DNA of 64,000 bases. It comes from an uncultured cyanobacterium (GTDB lineage Bacteria > Cyanobacteriota > Cyanobacteriia > PCC-6307 > Cyanobiaceae). Both the position numbers and the translations under genes were made by a program. The notes beneath the pieces were generated by a model, which saw only the letters and a program-made list of their open reading frames with translations, had not been told where the DNA came from and did no database searches. Below are positions 4,304 through 53,456 of the stretch, one piece after another (within the stretch, counting starts at the first letter, position 1; each line of letters opens with the position of its first letter). The stretch spans positions 737,546-801,545 of the forward strand of contig CAVXWZ010000011.1 of assembly GCA_963765575.1 (NCBI GenBank), in the 5' to 3' direction.

Positions 4304-4403
4304 CCGTGTTCTCCCTTGCCCGACCCGGTTAAAGGTCGCCTCGCCATTGTGCGCAGCAGCCCAGGCAGGGTTTGTGGCCACCGACACCGGATCGGCCCGG
4401 GCG

Positions 4404-6134
4404 TCAGGGAGCGCTGACGACGCTGTTCTGCTCCAGCCGCTGCCCGTTGCCCCGCCGCAGCCGTTCGGCCGCCGCCGTGCAGGCCCGCCAGGTGATCGCC
4501 ATCGACGTGAGCGTGGGGCTCTGCCAGCCGGCACTGGGCCAGCAGGCCCCATCCACCACCAGCAGGTTGGGCGCCTGCCAGCACTGGTTCCAGGGGTTCA
4601 CCACCCCGTCTTCGGGGGCAGCGGCCATGGCGGCGCCGCCCAGCTCATGGATGTAGTAGCCGGGCGGTGGCGCCGTGGGGCTCACCGCATGGCTGGAGCG
4701 AATCCAGGGCTCCAGCAGCGGCAGCACGAACAGCTCCTCGATCGGCCGGATCGTCCCCCCCGCCGCGGCCACCACCGCCGCCATGCGCTGCTGCATGTGC
4801 AGCACCATGGCCCGTTCGTTGGCGCCCCAGGCCATGGCGATGTGGGGGCTGGGCAGGCCCCAGGCGTCGAGGCGGCCGTGATCCAGGCTGACGCGGTTGT
4901 CGGGGTGGGGCAGCACCTCGCCATGGCCGATCAGGAAGCCGCTGGCCTCGTGGGGGCGGCGCCGCAGCGGCCGCGGTGGGTCGAATCGCTGCACCGCCGC
5001 CCAGAGGCCGTAGCCGCGCTGGAACCCCTCGGCGCCGGGGCCATCGAGGTTGACGGTGTTGGGGATGAAGCAGCTACCCGCCCCCGAGAGCTCCGCCGCC
5101 TGGGCCGGCGCCTCCCCAGCGGGCATGGAGAAGAAGCGGCTGCTGGAGATGTGATCCATCAACTGCCGGCCCAGGCCACCGGAGGAATCCACCAGGCCGC
5201 CGCCGCGCTCAGCCTCGCTGGAGTGCAGCAGGATCCGCAGGCTCTCGATCGTGGAGGCGCAGAGCACCACCAGGGGGGCCTCGAGCAGCTCCCGCGCGCC
5301 ACTGGCGGCATCCACCGCCACCAGCCCGCGCACCCGGCGCTGGTCGGCGTGCAGCAGCACATGGCTCACCACCACCTGGCTGCGCAGTTCGGTGCGGCCC
5401 GTGGCCAGGGCCCGCGCCAGCGTGCTCCCGGGGCTGGCCGAACGGGGCCAGGCGGGAGGCCCGTGGCGGTGCCCGTGGGCGGATGGCCGTGGACCCACGC
5501 CGCGGGAGTGAATGAAGGGCAGGCCCAGGCCCTCGCGCACCGCCTGGCCCAGCTGCCGTTCCGCCGGCGTGAAGGGCAGGGGCGGGGCGTAGTGGCCATC
5601 GGGCAGCTGGGGCAGGCCATCGGCCTGGCCATGCACCCCCAGCAGCGGCTCCAGGCGGTCGTAGTAGGGCGCCAGATCGGCGCTGGCGATCGGCCAGGAG
5701 GGGCTGCGGCCATCGCGCTCGCCGGCCTTGAATTCGTAGTCGCTCAAGCGCAGGGTGATGCCACCCCAGGTGAGACTGCGGCCGCCCACCTGGCGGCCCC
5801 GGGTCCACAGGAAAGGTTGATCCGGCGGCGTGCTGTAGGGGTTGCGGCGCTCATCGACGAACAGGTCCGGGTTCTGCTTCCAGAAGCCAGGGTGATGGCC
5901 CTGCAGGCGCTGTTTGCCACTGGCCAGGTTGGTGAGCCGACGCAGGCTGTTCAGCGGTTCGCTGCCGAAGGCCCGGCCGGGTTGCATCTGCGGGCCGGCC
6001 TCCAGCACCAGCACCCGCAGACCCGCCTCCGCCAGCACCATGGCCGCCACTCCGCCGGTGGCGCCAGAGCCCACCACGATCGCGTCCGCTGCTGGGGCCA
6101 TGGGGTCAGGCGGTTCAGCCGCTGAGGCTGGCAT
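4404..6134 (-). CDS. GMC family oxidoreductase (start may be 6101)
   Basis: IVVGSGATGG FAD-binding motif, GRQVGGRSLTWGG, HELGGAAM, NLLVVDGACWP...SPTLT. Confidence 0.9.
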   Translation of the reverse strand: MPASAAEPPDPMAPAADAIVVGSGATGGVAAMVLAEAGLRVLVLEAGPQMQPGRAFGSEPLNSLRRLTNLASGKQRLQGHHPGFWKQNPDLFVDERRNPYSTPPDQPFLWTRGRQVGGRSLTWGGITLRLSDYEFKAGERDGRSPSWPIASADLAPYYDRLEPLLGVHGQADGLPQLPDGHYAPPLPFTPAERQLGQAVREGLGLPFIHSRGVGPRPSAHGHRHGPPAWPRSASPGSTLARALATGRTELRSQVVVSHVLLHADQRRVRGLVAVDAASGARELLEAPLVVLCASTIESLRILLHSSEAERGGGLVDSSGGLGRQLMDHISSSRFFSMPAGEAPAQAAELSGAGSCFIPNTVNLDGPGAEGFQRGYGLWAAVQRFDPPRPLRRRPHEASGFLIGHGEVLPHPDNRVSLDHGRLDAWGLPSPHIAMAWGANERAMVLHMQQRMAAVVAAAGGTIRPIEELFVLPLLEPWIRSSHAVSPTAPPPGYYIHELGGAAMAAAPEDGVVNPWNQCWQAPNLLVVDGACWPSAGWQSPTLTSMAITWRACTAAAERLRRGNGQRLEQNSVVSAP

Positions 6135-7374
6135 CCAGGCGGATCAGGCTGTGCAGCAGCACGTTCACCCCCTGTTCGCACTGTTGGGGTGAGGTGAACT
6201 CAGCGGCCGAGTGGGACACGCCATCGCGGCTGGGCACGAAGATCATGCCCATGGCGGTGAGGCGGCCGAGCTCCTGGGCGTCGTGGCTGGCGCGGCTGGG
6301 CAGGTGGGTGTAGCTGAGGCCGAGATCGGCGCAGGCCTCGCTGATCACGTCCTGCACCCTGGCGTCGGCGGGGCTGGGATCCACCACGAACTGGGGCGTG
6401 ATGGCTATGCGGGTGCGGCGGGCCACGGCGATGGTCTCGATGCGCCGCTCCAGCTGGGCCTTCATGTGGTCGATTACGTCGTGGGAGAGATCGCGCATGT
6501 CGAGGGTGAACTCCACCCGGCCGGGCACGATGTTGGCGGCGTTGGGCCACACCGTGAGCTTGCCCACCGTGGCCACCGGATCACCGGGGTAGTGCAGGGC
6601 CATGTCCTCGATGGCCAGGATGATCTGGGCGGCGGCGGCGAGGGCGTCGCGGCGCATCTCCATGGGGGTGGTGCCGGCATGGTTGGCCTGGCCGCTGACG
6701 CTGATGGTGTAGCGCTGCTGGCCCACCACCCCTTCCACCACCCCGATCTGCTTGCCCACCGCCTCCAGCACGCCACCCTGCTCCACGTGCAGTTCCAGGA
6801 AGGCGGCCATCCCCTGGCGGGTGCGGCGGGCGCTCTGGCGTTGGTTCCAATCGCCACCGATGCTGGCCAGTCCCTCCTGGATCGGCACCCCGAGGCTGGT
6901 GGAGTAGCTGCTGGGGTCGTCGGATCCATGGCCGACCATCGATTTGCAGCCCACCATCGTGCTCTCCTCATCGGCGAAGGCGATCACCTCGATGGGGTGC
7001 TGCAGGCGCAGCTCGTGCTCGGCCAGTACCCGCACCACCTCAATCCCCCCCAGCACCCCCAGGGCACCGTCGTAGAGGCCACCCTCCGGCACCGTGTCGA
7101 TGTGGGAGCCGGTGGCCAGCACCGGGGCCTCGGGCCTGAGGCCGTCGTAGCGGCCGATCAGGTTGCCCGCCGCATCGATGCGCACGGCCATGCCGGCCTC
7201 CTCCATCCAGCCCTGCACCAGGGCGCGCGCGGCCCGGTCCTCCTCGCTGAAGGCCAGTCGGCGCACGGCCCCGGACGGCAGCCGGCCGATCTGCCCCAGG
7301 TCCGAAAGGCTGCGCGCCAGGCGAGCGCCGTCGGCGGCCAGACCGGTGGGCGGGGCGGAGAGGAGCTGGCTCAT
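6115..7374 (-). CDS. Zn-dependent M20 amidohydrolase (N-carbamoyl-L-amino acid hydrolase / allantoate amidohydrolase family)
   Basis: GSHIDTVPEGGLYDGALG, DEES, ELHVEQG, NHAGTTPM, SHDA, GVSHS; ATG at 7374 preferred over the longer ORF start at 7503. Confidence 0.9.
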   Translation of the reverse strand: MSQLLSAPPTGLAADGARLARSLSDLGQIGRLPSGAVRRLAFSEEDRAARALVQGWMEEAGMAVRIDAAGNLIGRYDGLRPEAPVLATGSHIDTVPEGGLYDGALGVLGGIEVVRVLAEHELRLQHPIEVIAFADEESTMVGCKSMVGHGSDDPSSYSTSLGVPIQEGLASIGGDWNQRQSARRTRQGMAAFLELHVEQGGVLEAVGKQIGVVEGVVGQQRYTISVSGQANHAGTTPMEMRRDALAAAAQIILAIEDMALHYPGDPVATVGKLTVWPNAANIVPGRVEFTLDMRDLSHDVIDHMKAQLERRIETIAVARRTRIAITPQFVVDPSPADARVQDVISEACADLGLSYTHLPSRASHDAQELGRLTAMGMIFVPSRDGVSHSAAEFTSPQQCEQGVNVLLHSLIRLDASLSG

Positions 7375-7555
7375 GGGCGGTGGCGGTTCGGTGCTGAAGG
7401 ACTGGGCGTGGCCCTGGTGGGGGCGGTCGTCACCACTGGTGGTTTCCCGTCCCGTTGCGACAATGGTGTGCTCGGTGACAGCCGGGCGCCGCGTGGTGAA
7501 CAATCATCAGCCCCATTCACTTTGAACGGCGGATCGCCCCGCTGCGCACACCGCG

Positions 7556-8296
7556 ATGACCTTCTCGATCGTGGCCTGGGATGCGTCCACCGGCATGACC
7601 GGTGTCGGAGTGGCAACCAAGCATCTGGCGGTGGGCTCACTCGTGCCCCATGCCCGTGCCGGCGTGGGGGCCGTGGCCACCCAGGCCAACACCAATCCCT
7701 ACTTCGGTCCCTGGGCGCTGGATCGCCTTGAGCAACTGCAGCACCAGAGTCAGGGCGAGCAGGGGGCTGACGCGGTGCTCGAATCACTGCTGCGGGACGA
7801 TCCGGGCCGCGATGGCCGCCAGGTCATGCTCGTGGATGGTCAGGGCCGCAGCGCCGCCTGGACCGGCGAGGGCTGCGCCGGCATCGCCGCCCATCGCTGC
7901 TATCCCGGCTTCGCGGTGGCGGGAAACTTTCTGGGTTCCGACCTGGTGCTGCTGGCGATGGCCGAGGCCTACATGGCCGCCGAGCGCCAGGGGCTGAGCC
8001 TGGAAGAGCGCCTGTTGCTGGCCCTCGAGGCCGGTGAGGCCCACGGCGGCGACCACCGCGGCCGCCAGTCGGCAGCCCTGCTGGTGATGCACCAGGAGAG
8101 CTACCCCCACGGCGACTTCCGGGTGGACCATCACCCCGAGCCCCTGGTGGCCCTGCGCGAGATCCTCACCGAGACCGAGCGCGAGTACTACACCGGCTTC
8201 CGCGCCGGACTGCCCACCACCCTGGGCTTGGCTCAGCCCGCCACAGCTCACTCCCCCATGTCTCAGTCAACGGACGACATGCCGATCAGGGCGTAG
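7556..8296 (+). CDS. DUF1028 family (Ntn-hydrolase-like) protein
   Basis: MTFSIVAWD...GVGVAT...AVGSLVP...GAVATQA, AGN, GGDHRGRQSAAL, RVDHHPEP. Confidence 0.88.
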   Translation: MTFSIVAWDASTGMTGVGVATKHLAVGSLVPHARAGVGAVATQANTNPYFGPWALDRLEQLQHQSQGEQGADAVLESLLRDDPGRDGRQVMLVDGQGRSAAWTGEGCAGIAAHRCYPGFAVAGNFLGSDLVLLAMAEAYMAAERQGLSLEERLLLALEAGEAHGGDHRGRQSAALLVMHQESYPHGDFRVDHHPEPLVALREILTETEREYYTGFRAGLPTTLGLAQPATAHSPMSQSTDDMPIRA

Positions 8297-10332
8297 GCCG
8301 GCTTGGCCTGCTCCTCCCGGTGCAGGCGCCAGCCCAGGCGATCGGCCTGCTGCCGCGCCTGGGCCGGAAGATCGGCGGCGATGAACAGCTTGTGCATGAT
8401 CTGCACGCAGATCAGGTGGTTGATCACCGCATCGAGCTGCACCCGCTGTGCCGCGCTGGTGTCGGGATGGTCGTGGCGCTCGAACAGGGCCTGCACCCCA
8501 GCTGAATCGAGCAGGCCGGCCTGCTCGATCGCTTTGGGATTGAGGTAGCGGTCGGCCAGGGTCTGCATGGCTGCCCGCTTCTGGGCATCGGCGTGGGCCG
8601 GGGGAGCCATGAACGCGAATTTCTCGCGCCGGTAGAGCACCTCCGGCAGCAGGCCACGCATGGCTTCGCGCAGCACGTATTTCTCGGTCTTGCCCTTGAT
8701 GCGCAGCTCCGGCGGCACCTGCACCGCCACCGCCGCCAGGTGGTGGTCGAGAAAGGCGGGGCGGGCTTCCATGGCATGGGCCATGTCGACGCGGTCGCCG
8801 CCCCAGGTGAGGATCTGGCCCTCCAGCATCGTCTTGATCCACACGTACTGGGCGCGATCAAGGGCGTGGCGCCCCTCCAGCTGGGATCGATCCAGGGTGG
8901 CAGCGATGGCGGCACCGGGGTCGTAGCCGGCGCAGGCGGCGCGGTGCTCCGGCGCCAGCAGATCGGGCACCAGCGGCGCGCAGGCCAGCCAGGGCTGCAG
9001 ACAGCTGGGGGTGAAGCCCACCACCTGTTCCAGGGCGGGATCGTGCACCTGTTCCTCGGCCAGCATCGCCCCCTGCACCAGGGCATTGGCCTGTTGCAGC
9101 AACTGCTCCCACTCCTGCCGGTCGGCGGCGGGCAGGTCGCCCAGGCCGTGCAGGAACATGTCGCGGCGGAAGGCGGGGTAGCCGCCGAACAGCTCGTCGG
9201 AACCCTCCCCCGTCATCACCACCTTGTAGTGGGCACGGTTGACCTCCCGGCTCATCAGGAACTTGGCCACCGCCAGGGTGTTGTAGATGCTGCGCTCGGC
9301 ATGCCAGATGGTGTCTTCCAGGTGGCCGTAGAGCTCATGGCCCGACAGCCGCATCACCAGCTGCTGGGCACCCGTGGCCTCGGCCATCTCGGTGGCGATC
9401 GGCGTCTCGTCGTAGCGGGCGTCATCGAAGCCGATCGTGAACGCCTTCACCGGGTTCTGGCTGACCGCCGCCGCCAGCCCCAGGATCGAGCAGGAGTCGA
9501 TGCCGCCGGACAGGTAGCAGCCCACCGGCACGTCGGCGACCATGCGCACCTCCACCGCCTCCAGCAGGGCGGCGCGCACGGCCTCGATGTGGTGGGTTTC
9601 GCTGAGGCCGCCATCGCGCTCCCCCTGGCGGGGGAAGTCCACGTCCCAGTAGGTGCGGTCACTGATCTCGAAGTCGCCATCGCGCCGGCAGACCGTGAGC
9701 ACGTGGCCAGGCATCAGCTGGTGCACCCCCTCGAAGGCCGTGCTGCCGGGTACCACCGTCTGCATCAGCTGGTGGAACAGACCTTGGGAGCTGAAGCGCC
9801 GCTGCACGCCCGGGTGGGCAAACAGCACCTTGAGTTCGGAGCCGAACACCAGGCCCTCGTCGGTGAGGGCCCAGTACTGGGGTTTGACGCCGAAGCGGTC
9901 GCGCACCAGCACCAGGGAATCGCTGCGGCGATCGAACAGGGCGAAGGCGAATTCACCGCGCAGCAGGGGCAGGGTGGCCTCCAGGCCGCGCTCCTGATAG
10001 AGCCGCAGCAGGATCTCCGAATCGCTCTTGCTGCTGAAGCGCACGCCGCGGGCGCTGAGGTCGGCGCGGATGCGCTGGAAGTCGTAGAACTCGCCGTTGT
10101 GGGCCATCAGCAGCTCGCCGTCCTCGGACACGAACGGTTGGCGGGCCCGGTTGGCGTCCAGGTCGATGATCGACAAGCGGGCATGGCAGAAGCCCACCCC
10201 TTGGCCACTGAGGCTGCGCACCCCGAAGCCGTCCGGGCCGCGGTGCACCTGGATCGCCGCCATGTTCACCAGCAGCTGCTCGTCGATCGGCTGCTCGCTC
10301 TGACGCTGGAAGATTCCGCCGATGCCGCACAT
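8263..10332 (-). CDS. asnB: Asparagine synthetase B-like glutamine-dependent amidotransferase
   Basis: MCGI N-terminal nucleophile, HRGPD, HNGEFYD, RDRFGVKP, LSGGIDS, TGEGSDELFGGY, EARPAFLD. Confidence 0.9.
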   Translation of the reverse strand: MCGIGGIFQRQSEQPIDEQLLVNMAAIQVHRGPDGFGVRSLSGQGVGFCHARLSIIDLDANRARQPFVSEDGELLMAHNGEFYDFQRIRADLSARGVRFSSKSDSEILLRLYQERGLEATLPLLRGEFAFALFDRRSDSLVLVRDRFGVKPQYWALTDEGLVFGSELKVLFAHPGVQRRFSSQGLFHQLMQTVVPGSTAFEGVHQLMPGHVLTVCRRDGDFEISDRTYWDVDFPRQGERDGGLSETHHIEAVRAALLEAVEVRMVADVPVGCYLSGGIDSCSILGLAAAVSQNPVKAFTIGFDDARYDETPIATEMAEATGAQQLVMRLSGHELYGHLEDTIWHAERSIYNTLAVAKFLMSREVNRAHYKVVMTGEGSDELFGGYPAFRRDMFLHGLGDLPAADRQEWEQLLQQANALVQGAMLAEEQVHDPALEQVVGFTPSCLQPWLACAPLVPDLLAPEHRAACAGYDPGAAIAATLDRSQLEGRHALDRAQYVWIKTMLEGQILTWGGDRVDMAHAMEARPAFLDHHLAAVAVQVPPELRIKGKTEKYVLREAMRGLLPEVLYRREKFAFMAPPAHADAQKRAAMQTLADRYLNPKAIEQAGLLDSAGVQALFERHDHPDTSAAQRVQLDAVINHLICVQIMHKLFIAADLPAQARQQADRLGWRLHREEQAKPAYALIGMSSVD

Positions 10333-10387
10333 AGGCCTGGTTTTCTGGGGGGTCTGCTGGGTTCGGGTGGGCCGCTGGCTCGGCCGC

Positions 10388-11491
10388 TCAGATGATGTCC
10401 ATCACCTGATCCATGCGCTCCACCATGCAGGTGAGCAGGGCCATGCGGATGAACACCGCGCCGCGGGCCTGGGAGAAATACCAGTTGTGGGCGGTCTCAT
10501 CCAGGCAGGTGCCCAGTTCGGGGCCGCGGGCCAGGGGGTGCAGCACGATGGCGTCCTGCCGGTAGGGCAGGTCGGCCGTGAGCTGGAAGCTGCGGCCGTG
10601 CACTTCATAGCTGTCACCCACCCAGGCGATGGCATTGATGTAGATCACATCCAAGTCGGGCACGGCGCCGTGCAGGTCGTCGCTGGTGCTCACCTTCAGT
10701 CCGGCCGCCTGCAGTTCCTCCAGCTGGCCCGGATCGAAGTAGCCGTCGAGGGGGGCGCTGCCGGGATCGTGGAACAGCACCAGTTCCTCCACCATCGCCG
10801 GGAACTGGGCCAGGATGCGCAGCAGCGAGCGCACCGTGCGCATGCGGCTGGGGATGCCCACCACGCCGATGCGGATGCGCTGGGCGGCGGGCAGCTCCCG
10901 CTCCACCAGCTGGGGCCGCCACTTGAAGATCGTGTAGAGATCCGCCATCGCCTGGGTGGGATGCTCATCGATGCCGTTGCCGGCATTGATGATCGGGATC
11001 CGCAGTGACTGGGTCATCTCGTAGATGGCCTCGGCGTGGGTGTCACGCAGCACCACACAGTCGCCGTAGTTGTTGAACATCTCGGCCACGTCGCGCAGGG
11101 TCTCCCCCTTGGCGATGCCGGTGGTGCTGCGGTCGGTGATCGTGATCGTGTCACCCCCCAGTCGGTGCCAGGCGCTGTCGAACGAGAGGCGCGTGCGGGT
11201 GCTGGGCTCGTAGAAGGCGTTGATCAGGATCTTGCCCCGCAGGGGGCTGTTGTGGCGCATGTAGCGCTCCGGATTGCTCTCGAACTTCGCCGCCAGGCGA
11301 AACAGCTGCAGCAGCGTCACCGCGCTGTATTGGCTGGTGGAGAGCACGTGTTGCTCGGTGAGCTCACGCAGGGCGTCGCTGTCTTCCCGGATGGCGCGCA
11401 GCAGGGCTTGGGGGTGGGCATTGCCGTAGACATCCGGACCCAGGCGGGTGAAGCGGATGCGGGGCTGGGAGGGCTGCGGGCTGGATGGCAT
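10388..11491 (-). CDS. Aspartate carbamoyltransferase-like (pseudo-ATCase) transcarbamylase; start may extend to 11596
   Basis: FYEPSTRTRLSF, KGET, INAGNG, HPTQ and HPLAR present; YINAIAW replaces the ATCase TRxQxER motif. Confidence 0.88.
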   Translation of the reverse strand: MPSSPQPSQPRIRFTRLGPDVYGNAHPQALLRAIREDSDALRELTEQHVLSTSQYSAVTLLQLFRLAAKFESNPERYMRHNSPLRGKILINAFYEPSTRTRLSFDSAWHRLGGDTITITDRSTTGIAKGETLRDVAEMFNNYGDCVVLRDTHAEAIYEMTQSLRIPIINAGNGIDEHPTQAMADLYTIFKWRPQLVERELPAAQRIRIGVVGIPSRMRTVRSLLRILAQFPAMVEELVLFHDPGSAPLDGYFDPGQLEELQAAGLKVSTSDDLHGAVPDLDVIYINAIAWVGDSYEVHGRSFQLTADLPYRQDAIVLHPLARGPELGTCLDETAHNWYFSQARGAVFIRMALLTCMVERMDQVMDII

Positions 11492-11658
11492 GGGCAGGCG
11501 GTGGCCTCGGGGGCTGCTCACGGCGTCAACGCCGACGCCACAACCATCTGTAGGTGGCAGCACCTCAGCTGCCGGCAAGAACTTGCTTTTGTTCACCTAG
11601 TGACCCCTTGACGTGGGGTCATTCGGTAGCCGATCACACTGATGCGCTGGCGTGGCCG

Positions 11659-11826
11659 TCACCACACCTGGCCTTCGCGCCACTCCTTCAGCCAGATCAG
11701 CACAATCACCAGGGTGGCCAGCGCCAGGCCGATGATGCTGCCCACCACCAGCAGCCGGAACAGGGAGGCGGGCAGCAGCCACTCGGTGGCGGCTGGCGTG
11801 GCGGACGCTGTGCTGAGCAGGGGCAT
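11659..11826 (-). CDS. 55-aa single-pass membrane microprotein (not in ORF track)
   Basis: Manual translation MPLLSTASATPAATEWLLPASLFRLLVVGSIIGLALATLVIVLIWLKEWREGQVW*; GC-ending codons; co-oriented between symporter and pseudo-ATCase. Confidence 0.65.
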   Translation of the reverse strand: MPLLSTASATPAATEWLLPASLFRLLVVGSIIGLALATLVIVLIWLKEWREGQVW

Positions 11827-11887
11827 GGCGGGCTGGCGCAGGGGGCTGGGGGCAAAGAAGACGGGGGGAGTGGTTGGCGGCCGGGGG

Positions 11888-13309
11888 TCAGCGGCCTGCG
11901 AGCAGGCGCCACTCGAACCGTTCCGGGTTCCAGTGGCTGCCCAGTCCCATCACCGCCGCCGACACCGCCGCCGACACCAGGGCGGCGCAGTAGGGGGCCA
12001 CCAGCACATAGGCGAGCAGACCGGTGGTCGAGCCCAGCACCATGGCGGCGGTGGCCGCCTGGCGGTTGGCCTGGGGCCAGTAGAGCCCCATGGCGATCGG
12101 CCAGATGGTGGAGGCCACCAGGGCGCCGGTGAACAGCAGCAGCTGGTACATCGAGGTGAGGTACTGCCAGGAGAGCACCATCGTCAGCAGCCCCAGGCCC
12201 ACCACCACCAGCCGTGCCGCCTGGCGGATCTGCCGGTCACTGATGCCGGGCATCAGCCAGTGGGCCACCACGTCTTCGGCGATCAGATCGGCGCTGGCGG
12301 CCAGCAGGGAATCGAGGGTGGAGGTGAGCGAGGCGAAGATGATGATGAACACCACGATCGCGCCGCCACTGCCCAGCAGCTGGGCGGTGATCAGCGGAAA
12401 GACCATGTTCACCTGGGGCACCTCCAGGTTCTGGGCCAGGGCCATCAGGGCGATGGCGCCGGTGACGACCGGCACGGCCGTCCAGGCCAGGCCGCCGAGC
12501 ACGAAGGAGCGGAACACCACCGTGGGCCGGCTGGCGAACACCCGACTCCACCAGATGTTGTTGTGGAACACCTCACCCATGCTGAACAGGCCGGTGTTCC
12601 AGGCGAACAGCAGGCCGGTCGGAAGCAGCATGTTCAGCCGTGACGGGTGCTCGGCCGCCAGGGCGTCGTACACCTGATCCACGCTCATCTGGCTGTAGCC
12701 CAGCACCGCCACCAGCACCAGCAAGGCCATGATCAGCAACGACTGAATGAAGTCGGTGCCCACCACCCCGCGCATGCCGCCGAAGAGGGTGTAGATGGTC
12801 GACACCCCGATCACGCAGACCATGCCGAGGCGGTAGTCGAAACCGGAGAGGGCCTGCAGCAGCAGGCCGGCCCCCATCCCCTGGGTGATCAGGAAGCCGA
12901 GGGTGTAGGCCATGGTGATCAGCAGGAACACCGCCCAGCACAGCCGGCCGTAGCGCAGGCGCACGAAGTCGCCGCTGGTGCGGGCCGTGGGCATCAGCCG
13001 CTTGATGCGGACCGCCAGCGGGGCGAACAGGAACAGCCCCAGCCCCGCCAGGGCGTAGCCGAGCATGCCCCACAGGCCCAGGGTGTAGCCCACCTCCGGA
13101 GCGGCGAGGGTGGTGTTGCCGGTGACCCAGCTGGCCATCAAGGTGGCCGTGCTCAGGGCCAGGCCGATGTTGCGGCCGGCGAGCAGGTAGTCGTCGGCAT
13201 CGCCCTTGCCGCGCCTGCCCCACCACACCCCCAGGGCGATCCAGAGCACTGAAAAGGCCACCAGCAGAAACCAGGCGATGCCGGCGTCGAGCAGCGGGGC
13301 GTCAGTCAT
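11888..13309 (-). CDS. Sodium:solute symporter (SSS; DUR3/PutP-like)
   Basis: DYLLAGRNIG, ASWVTGNT, SGDFVRLRYG, YTLFGGMRGVVGTDFIQ, ASLTSTLDSLL; many TM helices; ATG at 13309. Confidence 0.9.
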   Translation of the reverse strand: MTDAPLLDAGIAWFLLVAFSVLWIALGVWWGRRGKGDADDYLLAGRNIGLALSTATLMASWVTGNTTLAAPEVGYTLGLWGMLGYALAGLGLFLFAPLAVRIKRLMPTARTSGDFVRLRYGRLCWAVFLLITMAYTLGFLITQGMGAGLLLQALSGFDYRLGMVCVIGVSTIYTLFGGMRGVVGTDFIQSLLIMALLVLVAVLGYSQMSVDQVYDALAAEHPSRLNMLLPTGLLFAWNTGLFSMGEVFHNNIWWSRVFASRPTVVFRSFVLGGLAWTAVPVVTGAIALMALAQNLEVPQVNMVFPLITAQLLGSGGAIVVFIIIFASLTSTLDSLLAASADLIAEDVVAHWLMPGISDRQIRQAARLVVVGLGLLTMVLSWQYLTSMYQLLLFTGALVASTIWPIAMGLYWPQANRQAATAAMVLGSTTGLLAYVLVAPYCAALVSAAVSAAVMGLGSHWNPERFEWRLLAGR

Positions 13310-13448
13310 GGCGGGGCGTGCCGATGGGGTCGTCGTAGGGATCGCGGCCGTGCCAGCGGGCATGGCCGCGGGCGATCATGATCACGGTGGCCAGGGTGAC
13401 CACGGCGCCGATCGCGAAGATCAGCAGGGCCCGTTGCAGCTCGCTCAT
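13302..13448 (-). CDS. 48-aa single-pass membrane microprotein upstream of the symporter (not in ORF track)
   Basis: Manual translation MSELQRALLIFAIGAVVTLATVIMIARGHARWHGRDPYDDPIGTPRHD*; its stop overlaps the symporter start (ATGACTGA). Confidence 0.7.
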   Translation of the reverse strand: MSELQRALLIFAIGAVVTLATVIMIARGHARWHGRDPYDDPIGTPRHD

Positions 13449-13575
13449 GCACGACCACTAGCAGGGGGAGGGCGCCTGGGAGCCGTTCTGAAGCGGCCCG
13501 CAAGAAACCGGCGCCAATGGCAACCTCAATTCAGGCGGTCGCAAGCCGCCATGAATGCGTCATGAACAGGAGCAC

Positions 13576-13612
13576 AAAAAAACCCCGGCAGCAGCGCTGT
13601 CGGGGTTTTTTT
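13576..13612 (-). terminator. Intrinsic, probably bidirectional terminator downstream of tRNA-fMet
   Basis: A7-CCCCGGCAGC-a-GCTGTCGGGG-type stem-T7 immediately after the tRNA 3' end. Confidence 0.85.
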
Positions 13613-13615
13613 CAT

Positions 13616-13692
<77 letters not shown>

Positions 13693-13750
13693 CTGGTGAA
13701 TGGATCATACCAGCGCGGTGTCCCCCGCTACCGATCGTCCCCGGCCGGCC

Positions 13751-14722
13751 TCAGTCGAAGCGCAGCTCCCCGAGCACCTCCAGCTTCAGGTGGGGGGCCG
13801 GGCTCAGGAAGCGCTGGCGCAGCTCCTCGATGGTCATGGGGGTGAGCCAGTCGAGCTGCTCCAGCAGGTGCAGAGCCACCGCGTGCTTGGCCCGGGCGGA
13901 GCCGTCCTCCACCTTGATCGCCACCCCCATCCCCTCACCCACACGGCTGAGGCACTGGATGCCCTCGGCGCCCCCCTTGCTGAGCACCTGGCCGTGGCCC
14001 CGGCGCATCAGCTCGGTGTCGAAGTGACCCTCGCCGGCCACCAGGTGGGGGTGGGCCAGCATTGCCCGGCTGAGGCGCTCCAGGTCGGGCTGCTCGCCGG
14101 CACCCAGGTGGGCGAACAGCAGGGCCATCTGGGCCAGGCGCAGGCGCAGGGTGGGCACGCCGCAGTCATCGCGGGCGGTGACCAGCTCGGCCGCCGGCAG
14201 GGCCAGGTATTCGCCCACCCGCTTCAGCAACTCCTGCTGCAGGGGGTGATCCCCCTGCATGTAGCTCTCGGTGCTCCAGCCCAGGCGGCGGCAGGTGGCC
14301 AGGAAGGCCGCGTGTTTGCCGGAGCAGTTGTGCTCCAGGGGGCTGGTCCGCCCCGCCGGCACCGGACATTGCAGCTGGTCAGCCTCGAGTTCGGCGCTCC
14401 AGAGCAGCTTGAAGGCCTCACGGGCGTGCTCCGGCGTGCCGGCATGGGAGGCACAGGCGATGGCCAGGCCGCGGTCGCCCACCTTGCCCTGGTCGGCGCT
14501 GCCACTGGCCACGAACACGGCCGCCTGGAACGGCTTCAGGGCCGAGCGCATGAAGCTCAGCTGCTGGGGGTCGCCGGCCCGCATCAGCACCCGGCCACGG
14601 GCGTCACTGACGGCCGCGTGCACCCGGTGGCGCGACTCGGTGATGCCCTCGCGCAGCAGGCGCACCTCCAGGGGCGGAATGTCGGTGCGGGTGGCGGCAC
14701 CGAAGCTGGAGGAGAGGCTCAT
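13751..14722 (-). CDS. L-asparaginase II family (Rhizobium AnsA type)
   Basis: ESRH, RSALKPFQA, CASHAG, HNCSGKHA, DDCG, SKGGAEG, KVEDG motifs. Confidence 0.88.
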   Translation of the reverse strand: MSLSSSFGAATRTDIPPLEVRLLREGITESRHRVHAAVSDARGRVLMRAGDPQQLSFMRSALKPFQAAVFVASGSADQGKVGDRGLAIACASHAGTPEHAREAFKLLWSAELEADQLQCPVPAGRTSPLEHNCSGKHAAFLATCRRLGWSTESYMQGDHPLQQELLKRVGEYLALPAAELVTARDDCGVPTLRLRLAQMALLFAHLGAGEQPDLERLSRAMLAHPHLVAGEGHFDTELMRRGHGQVLSKGGAEGIQCLSRVGEGMGVAIKVEDGSARAKHAVALHLLEQLDWLTPMTIEELRQRFLSPAPHLKLEVLGELRFD

Positions 14723-14744
14723 GGGCAAGGGCTGGGGCTGACGT

Positions 14745-15293
14745 TCACTGAGCCTGCCAGAGCCTGGCTGTGAGCAGTCCGCAGCTGCCCAGCAGCATCA
14801 GCAGGGTGGCGACCGTGATCGCCTGCCGCAGCCGCTTGAGCACCGGTCGCACCTGATGGCGGGCCACCAGCAGATCCTGCTGGCGCCAGCTCAGGGGCTT
14901 TTCCCACACCTGGCCGTCGTACCACCCGGATTCCTCGTATTCCACCCGCTCGCTCACCAGCCGCTGGTGGATGCTGCGCCAGCCCAGCCACTGGCGCAGC
15001 AGCATCAGGGTGGGCAGGAGGATGGCGGTAACCGCACCAGCCAGCAGCCACTGCAGGGGGTGGTGGCGCAGTGCCCAGCTGCCACTGCTCACCAGCACAG
15101 TGAGGGGCAGGATCAGCAGCCAGCTCAAGGCCAGGGGCCGCAGCAGGTCGTTGAGGCTGTGGCGGGGCCAGGCGAAAAACCACGAGTCGCGCAGCTCCTG
15201 GTATTGCTGCAGGGGGCGCTGGGGGGGCGGAACGGGGCAGGGCCCGGCCGGGGCGCCGGGGAAATCGCCGGTGGCGCCGAGGGCGTCGCCCAT
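14745..15293 (-). CDS. CGLD27/Ycf36 (DUF1230) family protein
   Basis: CPVPPPQRP..Y.EL..SWFFAWP and YEESGWYDGQVWEKP motifs. Confidence 0.9.
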   Translation of the reverse strand: MGDALGATGDFPGAPAGPCPVPPPQRPLQQYQELRDSWFFAWPRHSLNDLLRPLALSWLLILPLTVLVSSGSWALRHHPLQWLLAGAVTAILLPTLMLLRQWLGWRSIHQRLVSERVEYEESGWYDGQVWEKPLSWRQQDLLVARHQVRPVLKRLRQAITVATLLMLLGSCGLLTARLWQAQ

Positions 15294-15296
15294 GGC

Positions 15297-15698
15297 TCAG
15301 CTGCTGGTGGCCTGGGCGGAGCCTAGGTAGCGCACCTGCTGGCCGTGGCCCCAGAACGCCTCCAGGTCGTAGTACTGGCGCTCCTTGGGCTGGAGCACGT
15401 GCACGATCAGCTCGCCGTAGTCGAGCAGCAGCCAGCGCCCTTCCGCCTGGCCCTCGCGGCGCAGGGGCAGGCGGCCCTCGGCCTCCTCCAGACGGTCCTC
15501 CACCGAGCGGGCGATGGCGCGAACCTGGACGTCGGAGAGGCCGCTGCAGATCACGAACCAGTCGGCCAGGGTGGTCACCTCGTCCACCCGGATCAGGCGG
15601 ATGTCCACGGCCTTGCGGTCATCGCAGGCCTCGGCCGCCAGGTGGGCCAGGGCTTCGCTGGCGGGATCGGGGGGGCCGGCGGCAAGAGCATCAGCCAT
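15297..15698 (-). CDS. rsfS: Ribosome silencing factor RsfS (Iojap)
   Basis: DDRKAVDI, ADWFVICSG, WLLLDYGELIVHV...RQYYDLEAFW. Confidence 0.93.
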   Translation of the reverse strand: MADALAAGPPDPASEALAHLAAEACDDRKAVDIRLIRVDEVTTLADWFVICSGLSDVQVRAIARSVEDRLEEAEGRLPLRREGQAEGRWLLLDYGELIVHVLQPKERQYYDLEAFWGHGQQVRYLGSAQATSS

Positions 15699-16326
15699 AG
15701 ACGTTCTCACTGGTGACGGATTCCCGCGATCCCTGCTGTTGGGCCATTTCGGCCCGGGCCCGGCTGGCGCTCTTGCGCAGTGACTCGAGGCGGTCGTCGT
15801 AGTAGGTGCGTTTCTTTTTCTTGCGGGTCTGCTCGGCCAGTTCCTTGAGGGCGCCGCCGAGGCTCTTGTAGGCGTTGGGCAGGGTGTAACCGAAACGGCA
15901 GGCCAGATCGATCGCTCGCTCGTCGGCGGCGATGGCCTCGGCCAGCCGCTTCTCGGAATTGTTCTTGAGGTAGAGGCGGTAGCCGGCGAAGCCCGACAGC
16001 CCCAGGGCCATCAGCAGCAACAGACCGTCCTGCACCCAGAGCTCGCCGATGGCGCCACCGAGGCCGATGGCCAGGGCCGCCATCTCCCAGCCGTCGCGGG
16101 GGACGGCGTCGTTCTGGATGCGGCCCACCTCATGCCAGAAGAGCAGGTTGCGGTGGTCCAGCGCCAGGGCATCCCATGTCTCGAGATCGACCTGGATCTC
16201 AATCTCGTCTCGCCCGATCTCCTCGATCGTCACCAGTGGTGGATCGATTGAGGCCGCGGCTTCCACGAACACCCAGCTCTGCATTTCCGGCGGCAGCAGC
16301 CCCTTGAGGCGCTGGAGTTCGCTCAT
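15691..16326 (-). CDS. DUF3318 family cyanobacterial protein
   Basis: ELQRLKGLLPPEMQSWV, RNLLFWHEVGRIQND, IAADERAI; ATG at 16326. Confidence 0.8.
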   Translation of the reverse strand: MSELQRLKGLLPPEMQSWVFVEAAASIDPPLVTIEEIGRDEIEIQVDLETWDALALDHRNLLFWHEVGRIQNDAVPRDGWEMAALAIGLGGAIGELWVQDGLLLLMALGLSGFAGYRLYLKNNSEKRLAEAIAADERAIDLACRFGYTLPNAYKSLGGALKELAEQTRKKKKRTYYDDRLESLRKSASRARAEMAQQQGSRESVTSENVYG

Positions 16327-16445
16327 GGATGCGTGGGATACAAGCCAACCCAGGTTAGCGACACGGATCGGTTCTCCTGAGTCGTCCGCCACCGACCATC
16401 GGGGGGGATCGTGTCAGGCTGCCTCGGTTTGGCCCGTTTGAGCCC

Positions 16446-19769
<3,324 letters not shown>

Positions 19770-53357: not shown

Positions 53358-53374
53358 CAGGGTCTCCACAGTGT

Positions 53375-53449
53375 CCGCGTCCCCGTTGCCTGGCGCGGCT
53401 CTGACTGCGTCCCCCTGCCCGCAGAAGCTGCACGGCAGGGGGATCAACG
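53375..53449 (-). ncRNA. Glutamine-II (Downstream-peptide) riboswitch
   Basis: Minus strand CGUUG-A-[UCCCCCUGCC...GGCAGGGGGA 10-bp stem]-CGCAGUCAGAG-CCGCG-CCAGG-CAACG-GGGA-CGCGG: P1 CGUUG/CAACG, pseudoknot CCGCG/CGCGG, directly upstream of a DUF4278 gene. Confidence 0.82.
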
Positions 53450-53456
53450 TGCTTCA

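What the first reader, a model, noticed from the sequence alone, without database searches (positions are those of the whole stretch)
6115..13448. Uncharacterised N-carbamoyl-amino-acid(-amide) pathway: symporter + pseudo-ATCase + AsnB amidotransferase + DUF1028 + N-carbamoylase
Seen: one minus-strand run (microORF, SSS symporter, microORF, ATCase-like, asnB-like) converges on a divergent pair (DUF1028 Ntn-hydrolase, M20 N-carbamoylase), all directly behind tRNA-fMet. Established: AsnB paralogues amidate non-aspartate carboxylates (AsnO in synthesis of the osmolyte N-acetylglutaminylglutamine amide); M20 carbamoylases remove N-carbamoyl groups; N-alpha-carbamoyl-L-glutamine 1-amide is an osmolyte of Ectothiorhodospira whose biosynthetic genes I do not know to be assigned. 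Inference: the transcarbamylase carbamoylates Gln/Asn (or Glu) and AsnB amidates the remaining carboxyl, giving an N-rich neutral solute or nitrogen store. The symporter imports it, and DUF1028 plus the carbamoylase de-amidate and de-carbamoylate it, so synthesis, uptake and recycling sit in one cassette. From memory, similar asnB/pyrB-like/carbamoylase clusters have been noted in picocyanobacteria, but I know of no demonstrated substrate.
Basis: partly seen in the sequence, partly recalled or inferred. Interest (0 to 1): 0.85.

Follow-up and report, generated by a model that had tools for sequence, protein, structure and literature searches.

The report
Candidate carbamoyl-glutamine-amide osmolyte gene cassette
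Seven neighbouring genes in a salt-tolerant picocyanobacterium most likely make, import and break down a small nitrogen-rich salt-protection molecule, probably N-carbamoyl-glutamine amide, a compound known since 1991 for which no genes were found assigned; the product has not been measured.

Summary
Observation confirmed: seven genes behind tRNA-fMet, gained or lost as one block. The cluster is in print (marine 'pseudo-ATCase', Barba 2013; asnB-pyrB2-pydC, Dore 2023) but I found no assay. This scan also noted it on at least eight other genomes.

The transcarbamylase keeps its carbamoyl-phosphate site but lacks the aspartate side-chain Arg in 273 of 273 homologues. Evidence for an osmolyte: (1) it tracks the unlinked salt marker ggpS (12 of 13 ggpS+ versus 0 of 12 ggpS- genus members) and habitat (1/67 freshwater, 10/17 brackish, 32/48 marine strains); (2) Ectothiorhodospira mobilis, the known producer of N-carbamoyl-glutamine amide, has the orthologous operon; (3) in published counts pyrB2 and the transporter rise with salt, while the two hydrolases jump 20-27-fold only with the nitrogen-starvation genes.

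Against: asnB is flat with salt at 28 C; only three independent tree contrasts; DUF1028 is a cyanobacterial substitute; the solute is reported from one organism. The downstream micro-protein is a predicted symporter subunit. Substrate inferred, not shown.

The parts
13616..13692 (-). tRNA-fMet (CAT); flanking landmark, present with and without the cassette
   Evidence: C1:C72 mismatch and three G-C anticodon-stem pairs
13580..13609 (-). G+C hairpin plus T run after the tRNA, a likely terminator; the cassette probably has its own promoter
   Evidence: seen in the sequence and conserved in 11 aligned genus sequences; not reported by the pattern scan
13302..13448 (-). micro-ORF1, 48 aa, one hydrophobic helix; overlaps the symporter start by 8 bases; role unknown, perhaps a symporter accessory
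   Evidence: 68-96% identical in 10 of 10 genus loci; no Pfam family; positional counterpart in RS9907 rises 3.7-5.1-fold from 18 to 50 PSU
11888..13309 (-). Sodium:solute symporter family transporter; nearest solved relatives are DUR3 urea-proton symporters; inferred importer of the ureido solute
   Evidence: PF00474 79.1 bits; DUR3 E 7e-34 against 6e-10 for the next family
11659..11826 (-). micro-ORF2, single helix ending in Trp; predicted small subunit of the symporter (true start may be about 15 codons later)
   Evidence: a like ORF in 127 of 127 loci with the symporter directly before pyrB2 (alignment); complex model score 0.83, best control 0.00
11622..11635 (-). NtcA-like box (GTG-N8-TAC) upstream of pyrB2; weak evidence
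   Evidence: relaxed pattern in 16 of 23 cyanobacterial loci against 3.6 expected; strict pattern 5 of 23 against 1.0; consensus recalled; loci are related
10388..11491 (-). PyrB2, marine pseudo-ATCase: carbamoyltransferase for an acceptor other than aspartate, inferred L-glutamine
   Evidence: below ATCase cut-offs; STRT, HPTQ and the alpha-carboxylate Arg kept, RxQ replaced by AIA, HPLA; ATCase fold; the genome has a separate pyrB and argF
8263..10332 (-). AsnB-type glutamine-dependent amidotransferase; inferred to amidate the alpha-carboxyl of the carbamoylated amino acid
   Evidence: TIGR01536 416.3 over 267.1; TIGR03104 (AsnO) 314.7 under 570.1; Cys2, SGG motif and segment LEGQILTWGGDR invariant in 139 of 139
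7556..8296 (+). DUF1028 protein with Ntn-hydrolase fold; inferred amidase that frees the alpha-carboxyl
   Evidence: PF06267 221 bits; model matches 2imh Z 31.1 (rmsd 2.0, 209 aligned) and taspase Z 16.9 (rmsd 3.5, 199 aligned); Thr2 invariant in 10 of 10
6115..7374 (-). M20 hydantoinase/carbamoylase-family amidase; inferred to remove the N-carbamoyl group
   Evidence: TIGR01879 422.8 over 204; best solved match L-N-carbamoylase 3n5f E 3e-96; metal ligands and R294 invariant in 95 of 95

Best explanation
[quoted passage not shown] Step 1 (inferred): PyrB2 moves a carbamoyl group from carbamoyl phosphate to the alpha-amino group of L-glutamine; the kept alpha-carboxylate Arg implies this comes before amidation. 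Step 2 (inferred): AsnB activates the alpha-carboxyl with ATP and amidates it with glutamine-derived ammonia. Step 3 (inferred): the DUR3-like symporter, with micro-ORF2 as a small subunit, imports or retrieves the ureido solute. Step 4 (inferred): when nitrogen runs short, DUF1028 removes the amide and the M20 enzyme removes the carbamoyl group, returning glutamine, ammonia and CO2. Shown here: gene content, co-inheritance, active-site changes, salt-linked distribution, presence in the producer species, and split regulation in one published data set. Not shown: any activity, substrate or product.
For: Symporter-pyrB2-asnB adjacent in 80 of 80 loci. M20-isochorismatase-symporter-pyrB2-asnB in 20 of 20 loci from an evenly drawn class sample. 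RxQ Arg replaced by A/S/T in 273 of 273 with the carbamoyl-phosphate site intact. Genus: pyrB2 in 12 of 13 ggpS+ and 0 of 12 ggpS- genomes, at unlinked loci, with one double-positive genome nested among double negatives and one the reverse. Family: 56 of 60 pyrB2+ genomes have ggpS; four mixed genera give 12/13 vs 0/11, 7/8 vs 0/14, 1/1 vs 0/1 and 2/2 vs 0/2. Published table: 1/67 freshwater, 10/17 brackish, 32/48 marine; the one freshwater strain is one of two with ggpS (PMC9361551). Three proteins named E. mobilis are PyrB2 orthologues, 61-62% identical; loci L239 and L241 encode two of them in an M20-isochorismatase-pyrB2-asnB operon; NCBI resolves E. marismortui to E. mobilis. RS9907 counts (PMC12834511 Table S1, normalised by me): pyrB2 rho 0.70 with salinity, micro-ORF1 0.84, symporter 0.49; M20 27-fold and DUF1028 20-fold up in the two replicates where ntcA and urtA rise 10-fold, while pyrB2 changes 1.3-fold. 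LTW-R at low salt: pyrB2 log2 -0.66, the two genes before it -2.19 and -2.67 (PMC7771541 data set). Nearest solved transporter is DUR3.
Against: No product has been measured. The solute was described as found in one organism only, and as minor (PMC3857566), yet the genes are in at least 391 species and 49 of 55 genomes of one family, so presence in E. mobilis is necessary but not discriminating. In RS9907 asnB does not follow salinity (rho 0.12; 1.0-fold at 28 C) and pyrB2 rises only 1.6-fold at 28 C against 5.8-fold for ggpS. In LTW-R asnB and M20 are not among the changed genes found, and the two strongly changed genes are unlabelled and lie beside the betaine genes, so read-through is possible. 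The tree gives only 3 independent pairs (p 0.25). 30 of 86 ggpS+ genomes lack pyrB2. Five heterotroph genomes with the core have neither amidase. No NtcA-like box is enriched before M20 or DUF1028 (4 of 23 and 1 of 23 against 2.7 and 2.4), whereas one is before pyrB2, which does not match the transcript pattern. A metatranscriptome labelled freshwater holds about 90%-identical relatives of the cassette (salinity unknown).
Confidence: 0.65

Rival explanations
1. The cassette makes and recycles a carbamoylated, amidated metabolite, but a different one (for example from Asn, Glu or another acceptor), or one that serves mainly as a nitrogen store rather than an osmolyte.
For: The substrate pocket could only be read from sequence. 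The hydrolases respond to nitrogen starvation. An NtcA-like box precedes pyrB2. The cluster is tied to warm N- and P-poor waters and missing from several marine clades (PMC10119275), and sits beside urease in some marine genomes. asnB is flat with salt at 28 C.
Against: Near-absence from freshwater strains, co-inheritance with ggpS, presence in the known producer, and neighbours such as sucrose synthase and MscS or betaine and glucosylglycerate genes favour an osmotic role. The two roles are not exclusive.
Confidence: 0.22
2. It is a scavenging pathway: the symporter imports an environmental ureide, and the transcarbamylase runs backwards (phosphorolysis), like the ureidoglycine carbamoyltransferase of Rubrobacter.
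For: The only assayed pseudo-ATCase is catabolic (PMC4016543). The transporter is DUR3-like. The M20 enzyme passes an allantoate-amidohydrolase subfamily cut-off.
Against: No carbamate kinase in the genome (best 25 bits, cut-off 358). No allantoinase or kinase gene in the cassette. The motifs are those of the marine group, not the purine group. An ATP-consuming amidotransferase is the fixed partner. pyrB2 and asnB are not induced with urtA and ntcA.
Confidence: 0.08
3. It is an alternative pyrimidine/asparagine route, as suggested by Dore et al. 2023: AsnB makes Asn, PyrB2 is a second ATCase, and the M20 enzyme is a beta-ureidopropionase.
For: Database names; ATCase is the closest fold; AsnB passes TIGR01536; the genome has no other AsnB-type enzyme.
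Against: The aspartate side-chain motif RxQ is lost in all 273 homologues. A canonical pyrB is present and is in 132 of 132 strains of the published table. No dihydroorotase gene is in the cassette. Most freshwater relatives live without the cassette.
Confidence: 0.05

Closest known systems
Marine 'pseudo-ATCase' subgroup and its synteny block (Barba et al. 2013, PMC4016543; passages read)
   Same: [quoted passage not shown]
   Different: Nothing in membership. That paper assayed only the Rubrobacter purine-context enzyme and gave no substrate for the marine group in the passages read. Its Table 1 lists these motifs under 'pseudo-ATCase 1' while its text calls the marine group Subgroup 3.
[quoted passage not shown] 2023, PMC10119275; passages and three supplement rows read)
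   Same: Same three genes, patchy among picocyanobacteria.
   Different: They suggest alternative pyrimidine synthesis; the lost aspartate ligands argue against that. Here M20 and DUF1028 are a divergent pair at tRNA-fMet, whereas most marine copies fetched are co-directional at other sites.
NAGGN (N-acetylglutaminylglutamine amide) osmolyte system, asnO-ngg
   Same: Works alike: cap the amino end and amidate the carboxyl end of a glutamine compound with an AsnB paralogue, with a linked hydrolase (mechanism recalled; family name).
   Different: AsnB is under the AsnO cut-off (314.7 of 570.1). There is no acetyltransferase/ligase gene. The cap would be carbamoyl, on a single amino acid, with a dedicated symporter.
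Aspartate carbamoyltransferase PyrB (EC 2.1.3.2)
   Same: Fold, carbamoyl-phosphate site and alpha-carboxylate Arg.
   Different: RxQ replaced by AIA, HPLP by HPLA, Gly before the Arg by Met; under all ATCase cut-offs; forms its own clade.
[quoted passage not shown]
   Same: Its two modifications match the two synthetic enzymes, and the species carries the orthologous operon.
   Different: No genes are assigned in the passages read. The E. mobilis operon uses an isochorismatase-family hydrolase instead of DUF1028 and has the symporter elsewhere.

Membership tests
ATCase PyrB (EC 2.1.3.2) | Carbamoyl-phosphate site (STRT, HPTQ, conserved Arg and Lys) | tested here: met
   S97 T98 R99 T100, K128, R149, H177-Q180 conserved in 272-273 of 273
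ATCase PyrB (EC 2.1.3.2) | Aspartate side-chain motif RxQ | tested here: not met
   A287-I-A289; Arg replaced by A/S/T in 273 of 273, while 7 canonical controls and the genome's own PyrB have R and Q
ATCase PyrB (EC 2.1.3.2) | NCBIfam cut-off | tested here: not met
   TIGR00670 188.2 under 236.95; PRK00856 183.4 under 263
Marine pseudo-ATCase subgroup (Barba 2013) | Motifs STRT, HPTQ, HPLA and AIA/AIS/SIA | tested here: met
Marine pseudo-ATCase subgroup (Barba 2013) | Symporter on one side, Asn-type enzyme on the other, carbamoylase nearby | tested here: met
Marine pseudo-ATCase subgroup (Barba 2013) | One clade with the named members | tested here: met
   17 PyrB2 rows including N. oceani form one clade, FastTree support 98; quick method, no bootstrap
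Ureidoglycine carbamoyltransferase (Rubrobacter type) | Carbamate kinase and allantoinase context | tested here: not met
   no carbamate kinase over cut-off in the genome; neither gene in the cassette
Ureidoglycine carbamoyltransferase (Rubrobacter type) | Phosphorolysis of allantoate | not testable with these tools
   needs an assay
Asparagine synthase B family (TIGR01536) | Cut-off, N-terminal Cys, ATP-binding SGG motif | tested here: met
   416.3 over 267.1; C2 and S275-G-G invariant in 139 of 139
Asparagine synthase B family (TIGR01536) | Aspartate as acceptor | not testable with these tools
   needs an assay; nearest solved relative is a hydroxyamidotransferase (7ylz, E 2e-43), then E. 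coli AsnB
NAGGN system (AsnO, TIGR03104) | AsnO cut-off and an ngg acetyltransferase/ligase partner | tested here: not met
   314.7 under 570.1; no such gene among the seven
M20 hydantoinase/carbamoylase amidases (TIGR01879) | Cut-off and metal ligands | tested here: met
   422.8 over 204; H91, D102, E136, E137, H196, H388 invariant in 95 of 95
ErtE N-carbamyl-glutamate amidohydrolase / AllC allantoate deiminase | Equivalog cut-offs | tested here: not met
   ErtE 413.7 under 520; AllC 277.6 under 597.75
DUF1028 / Ntn-hydrolases | Pfam cut-off, Ntn fold, N-terminal Thr | tested here: met
DUF1028 / Ntn-hydrolases | Amidase activity | not testable with these tools
   no functional paper surfaced (one unrelated listing)
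Sodium:solute symporter family | Family cut-offs | tested here: inconclusive
   PF00474 79.1 over 22.8 but TIGR00813 134.5 under 184; nearest solved relatives are DUR3
Biosynthetic locus of N-carbamoyl-glutamine amide | Present in the producer species | tested here: met
Biosynthetic locus of N-carbamoyl-glutamine amide | Absent from named non-producers | not tested
   no list of named non-producers could be searched; 8 of 9 unnamed pufM-bearing genomes lack pyrB2
Biosynthetic locus of N-carbamoyl-glutamine amide | Makes the compound | not testable with these tools
   needs expression and LC-MS/NMR

The most novel reading that the evidence does not exclude
[quoted passage not shown] The solute, reported from one purple sulfur bacterium, is then made by most warm-water marine Synechococcus and hundreds of marine bacteria, traded through a two-subunit DUR3-like symporter, and drawn down as a four-nitrogen reserve under nitrogen starvation.
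Probability: 0.5. Interest if true: 0.88.

Novelty: new variant of a known kind. Interest (0 to 1): 0.72.

Why it matters
It gives a short, directly testable answer to an open question: the genes for an osmolyte known since 1991, which none of my literature searches found assigned. If right, it adds a new transcarbamylase activity, a function for DUF1028, and an overlooked nitrogen-rich solute in abundant marine picocyanobacteria and heterotrophs, which would bear on marine dissolved organic nitrogen and on what separates marine from freshwater picocyanobacteria. It would also correct the 'second ATCase / asparagine synthase' names in hundreds of genomes. The cluster itself is already described, so the novelty lies in the function.

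Tried and rejected
Plasmid search with PyrB2: no match at E 1e-50. Rfam at gathering score: no riboswitch in the cassette. Sigma-70/terminator scan: nothing above chance. Protein atlas: only generic ATCase-named clusters. Neighbouring asparaginase II and carB as members: rejected, since they stand in cassette-negative genomes too. Recent foreign insertion: GC3 0.85-0.95, like the flanks; the cyanobacterial PyrB2s do nest among marine proteobacterial ones in a quick tree, so an old transfer is possible but untested. NtcA-like hits before micro-ORF1 and the symporter in this genus lie upstream of the tRNA and were discarded. The product of per-genus Fisher p-values is not a valid test because kin are not independent; not used. 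HK05 supplement gave annotation only, no expression values. Papers searched by recalled WH8102 locus tags gave one unrelated listing. A degenerate sister family showed no cassette genes on four short contigs. One search used a wrong family accession and shows nothing. One RNA run with a 0.05 word share was laid; contigs cannot show transcription. Searches of earlier notes by words and by genome were empty.
Full report
OBSERVATION. The seven genes are present as described behind an initiator tRNA-Met. The host is a picocyanobacterium, inferred from its nearest named homologues. It has its own canonical pyrB and argF and no other AsnB-type enzyme. All seven genes stand at this tRNA in 10 of 10 same-genus loci fetched (10 of 14 positives). 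In 13 negative genus genomes, 6 join the tRNA to the GMC gene within 124-201 bases, 4 hold other cargo and 3 are uninformative. The stretch 6115-13448 is thus one heritable unit.

THE TRANSCARBAMYLASE. PyrB2 has the ATCase fold but is under every ATCase cut-off. In 273 homologues the carbamoyl-phosphate site and R218 (the alpha-carboxylate Arg, E. coli R167; numbering and role recalled) are conserved. The RxQ motif that holds aspartate's side chain is A/S/T-I-A: Arg is lost in 273 of 273. Family-specific invariants are M217, N286, I288, W290 and HPLA. No basic residue replaces the Arg, so a neutral, perhaps longer, side chain such as glutamine's fits; this is inference from sequence only. The 17 family rows form one clade apart from canonical ATCases (FastTree 98).

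THE PARTNERS. AsnB passes the general family cut-off but not that of AsnO, keeps Cys2 and the ATP motif, and has a segment LEGQILTWGGDR invariant in 139 of 139. The M20 protein is nearest to an L-N-carbamoylase, with metal ligands and R294 invariant in 95 of 95. That Arg binds the substrate carboxylate in carbamoylases (recalled), so the amide would have to come off first. DUF1028 models as an Ntn-hydrolase (2imh Z 31.1; taspase Z 16.9) with invariant Thr2. The symporter's nearest solved relatives are DUR3 urea transporters. A hydrophobic micro-ORF ending in Trp lies between symporter and pyrB2 in 127 of 127 loci; my filter selected for those traits, but the alignment shows a shared pattern. 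The complex model supports its binding to the symporter: score 0.83, best of 3 controls 0.00, a mark reached by 116 of 157 solved complexes and 2 of 215 mismatched pairs; runs agree in at least 95% of contacts and partner pLDDT is 85. This supports binding and does not show it.

CO-OCCURRENCE. A scan of species genomes found 391 relatives and kept the best 80, a set biased by my query (37 Idiomarinaceae). Symporter-pyrB2-asnB were adjacent in 80 of 80, M20 within 10 kb in 33, DUF1028 in 0. In an even draw of Gammaproteobacteria 24 of 400 scored genomes had pyrB2. I fetched 20 of the 24, leaving out four from sets already seen, and 20 of 20 read M20, isochorismatase-family hydrolase, symporter, pyrB2, asnB; three have frameshifts. 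DUF1028 therefore fills the place of a cysteine amidase in picocyanobacteria, which suggests a shared amidase job. Against generality, five heterotroph genomes have the M20 gene but neither amidase was found.

SALT LINK. Among 25 genus genomes at least 90% complete, pyrB2 is in 12 of 13 with ggpS and 0 of 12 without, and the loci are unlinked. A carB tree needs 3 changes, with G013 (both genes) nested among negatives and G028 (neither) beside positives. This gives only 3 independent pairs, on average 2.6 concordant and none opposite, p 0.25; carB is also close to the cassette. Among 251 family genomes 60 have pyrB2, 86 ggpS and 56 both. The four exceptions are G487, G521, G613 and G675. Mixed genera give 12/13 vs 0/11, 7/8 vs 0/14, 1/1 vs 0/1, 2/2 vs 0/2, and a fifth 0/1 vs 0/2. 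ggpS is in all marine, 16/17 brackish and 2/67 freshwater strains (PMC9361551, passage). That paper's Table S7 shows pyrB2 in 1/67 freshwater, 10/17 brackish and 32/48 marine strains, and the one freshwater carrier is one of the two with ggpS. It is absent from a third of marine strains, so it is not required for sea water.

THE KNOWN PRODUCER. [quoted passage not shown] Proteins named from E. mobilis, E. magna, E. lacustris, E. shaposhnikovii, E. marina and Thiorhodospira sibirica are PyrB2 orthologues. Loci L239 and L241 encode proteins identical to two E. mobilis-named ones, in the order M20, isochorismatase-family, pyrB2, asnB, with AsnB 65-66% identical to the window's; the symporter orthologue lies elsewhere in 5 of 5 genomes tested. 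[quoted passage not shown] But 49 of 55 genomes of that family have pyrB2, and the solute was called minor and known from one organism only (PMC3857566, passages). The test is necessary, not sufficient.

EXPRESSION, FROM PUBLISHED TABLES. RS9907 raw counts (PMC12834511 Table S1 rows) were scaled by me to the median of eight housekeeping genes; this is post hoc and not a full-matrix normalisation. From 18 to 50 PSU at 28 C and 20 C: ggpS 5.8 and 7.7-fold, micro-ORF1 3.7 and 5.1, symporter 2.3 and 1.7, micro-ORF2 3.1 and 1.3, pyrB2 1.6 and 3.2, asnB 1.0 and 1.7, M20 0.6 and 1.0, canonical pyrB 1.3 and 1.1. Micro-ORFs and DUF1028 were assigned by position. In two replicates where ntcA and urtA rose 10-fold, M20 rose 27-fold and DUF1028 20-fold while pyrB2 and asnB changed 1.3 and 1.6-fold; these two were left out of the salinity correlations. 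In LTW-R at 10 versus 33 ppt, pyrB2 fell (log2 -0.66), the two unlabelled genes before it fell (-2.19, -2.67), DUF1028 rose (+0.53), and asnB and M20 were not in the rows found; read-through from adjacent betaine genes is possible (PMC7771541). An NtcA-like box is enriched before pyrB2 (16 of 23 relaxed, 3.6 expected; 5 of 23 strict, 1.0 expected) but not before the hydrolases. This mismatch is unexplained.

MECHANISM. Best reading (0.65): Gln plus carbamoyl phosphate gives N-carbamoyl-Gln (PyrB2); ATP-dependent amidation gives the 1-amide (AsnB); the symporter with its small subunit imports it; DUF1028 and then M20 recycle it when nitrogen is short. All four steps are inferred. Rivals: another carbamoyl amide or mainly a nitrogen store (0.22); ureide scavenging (0.08; no carbamate kinase); alternative pyrimidine/asparagine synthesis (0.05).

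WHAT IS KNOWN. Barba 2013 (passages) defined the marine pseudo-ATCase group and its synteny and assayed only the Rubrobacter enzyme. Dore 2023 (passages and supplement rows) listed asnB-pyrB2-pydC as a possible alternative pyrimidine route. Xia 2023 (PMC9948718; passage and annotation rows) added nothing on function. Galinski and Oren 1991 and Severin 1992 were not seen. Searches found no paper linking these genes to the solute, but the library lacks most subscription journals and theses. Supplement files 13-21 of PMC9361551 and all bioRxiv supplements were not searched and could bear on this. Earlier notes of this scan reached the same idea on at least eight other genomes; they are not evidence, though one gave me the Barba paper.

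VERDICT. A real, described but untested cluster; a member of the marine pseudo-ATCase group; works like the NAGGN system without being a member. New variant of a known kind, interest 0.72.

Noticed in passing
window 53374-53452 (-): Glutamine-II riboswitch aptamer over the Rfam gathering score (48.6 bits); downstream gene not examined.
   Followed up: no
P0130, P0132, P0134, P0135, P0140, P0142; loci L294-L297: A sister family of about 355 aa, 37-41% identical to PyrB2, has lost STRT, the conserved Lys and HPTQ, and may be an inactive pseudo-enzyme. Four short metagenome contigs showed no cassette genes beside it.
   Followed up: partly
L143, L146, L149, L151 (G005, G023, G015, G004), between tRNA-Met and the GMC gene: Cassette-negative relatives carry other 2-4 kb cargo at the same site; one gene resembles a periplasmic binding protein. 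The site looks like a variable slot.
   Followed up: partly
L189:4513-13105 (G186): The M20-isochorismatase-pyrB2-asnB operon lies between sucrose synthase and an MscS channel gene, an osmotic context.
   Followed up: partly
L236 (G742): pyrB2 stands alone; the asnB and symporter orthologues are elsewhere in the genome.
   Followed up: yes
L192 (G675) and G521: A 1.7-Mb genome has pyrB2-asnB-M20-DUF1028 with no symporter in the locus. G521 (3.7 Mb, complete) has the cassette but no ggpS.
   Followed up: partly
window 7467-7510: A conserved element between M20 and DUF1028 (TGGTG...CA...AATCAT) holds the only sigma-70-like match of the scan and may be overlapping divergent promoters.
   Followed up: partly
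window 13751-19769: Asparaginase II and carB (carbamoyl-phosphate synthase) lie within 3 kb of the cassette but are core neighbours, present without it.
   Followed up: yes
L017-L096, directly upstream of the symporter: Proteobacterial loci have a 140-190 aa ORF with no Pfam family where micro-ORF1 sits here (one cluster in 60 of 80); homology to micro-ORF1 not detected.
   Followed up: partly
L191, L249, L275, L292, L293; G598: Several copies have frameshifts in pyrB2, asnB or the symporter (decay or assembly error not told apart); G598 has two pyrB2 copies.
   Followed up: no
run X1 laid on window 4400-14800: A metatranscriptome labelled freshwater holds contigs about 90% identical across the cassette genes; salinity unknown and transcription not shown.
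   Followed up: partly
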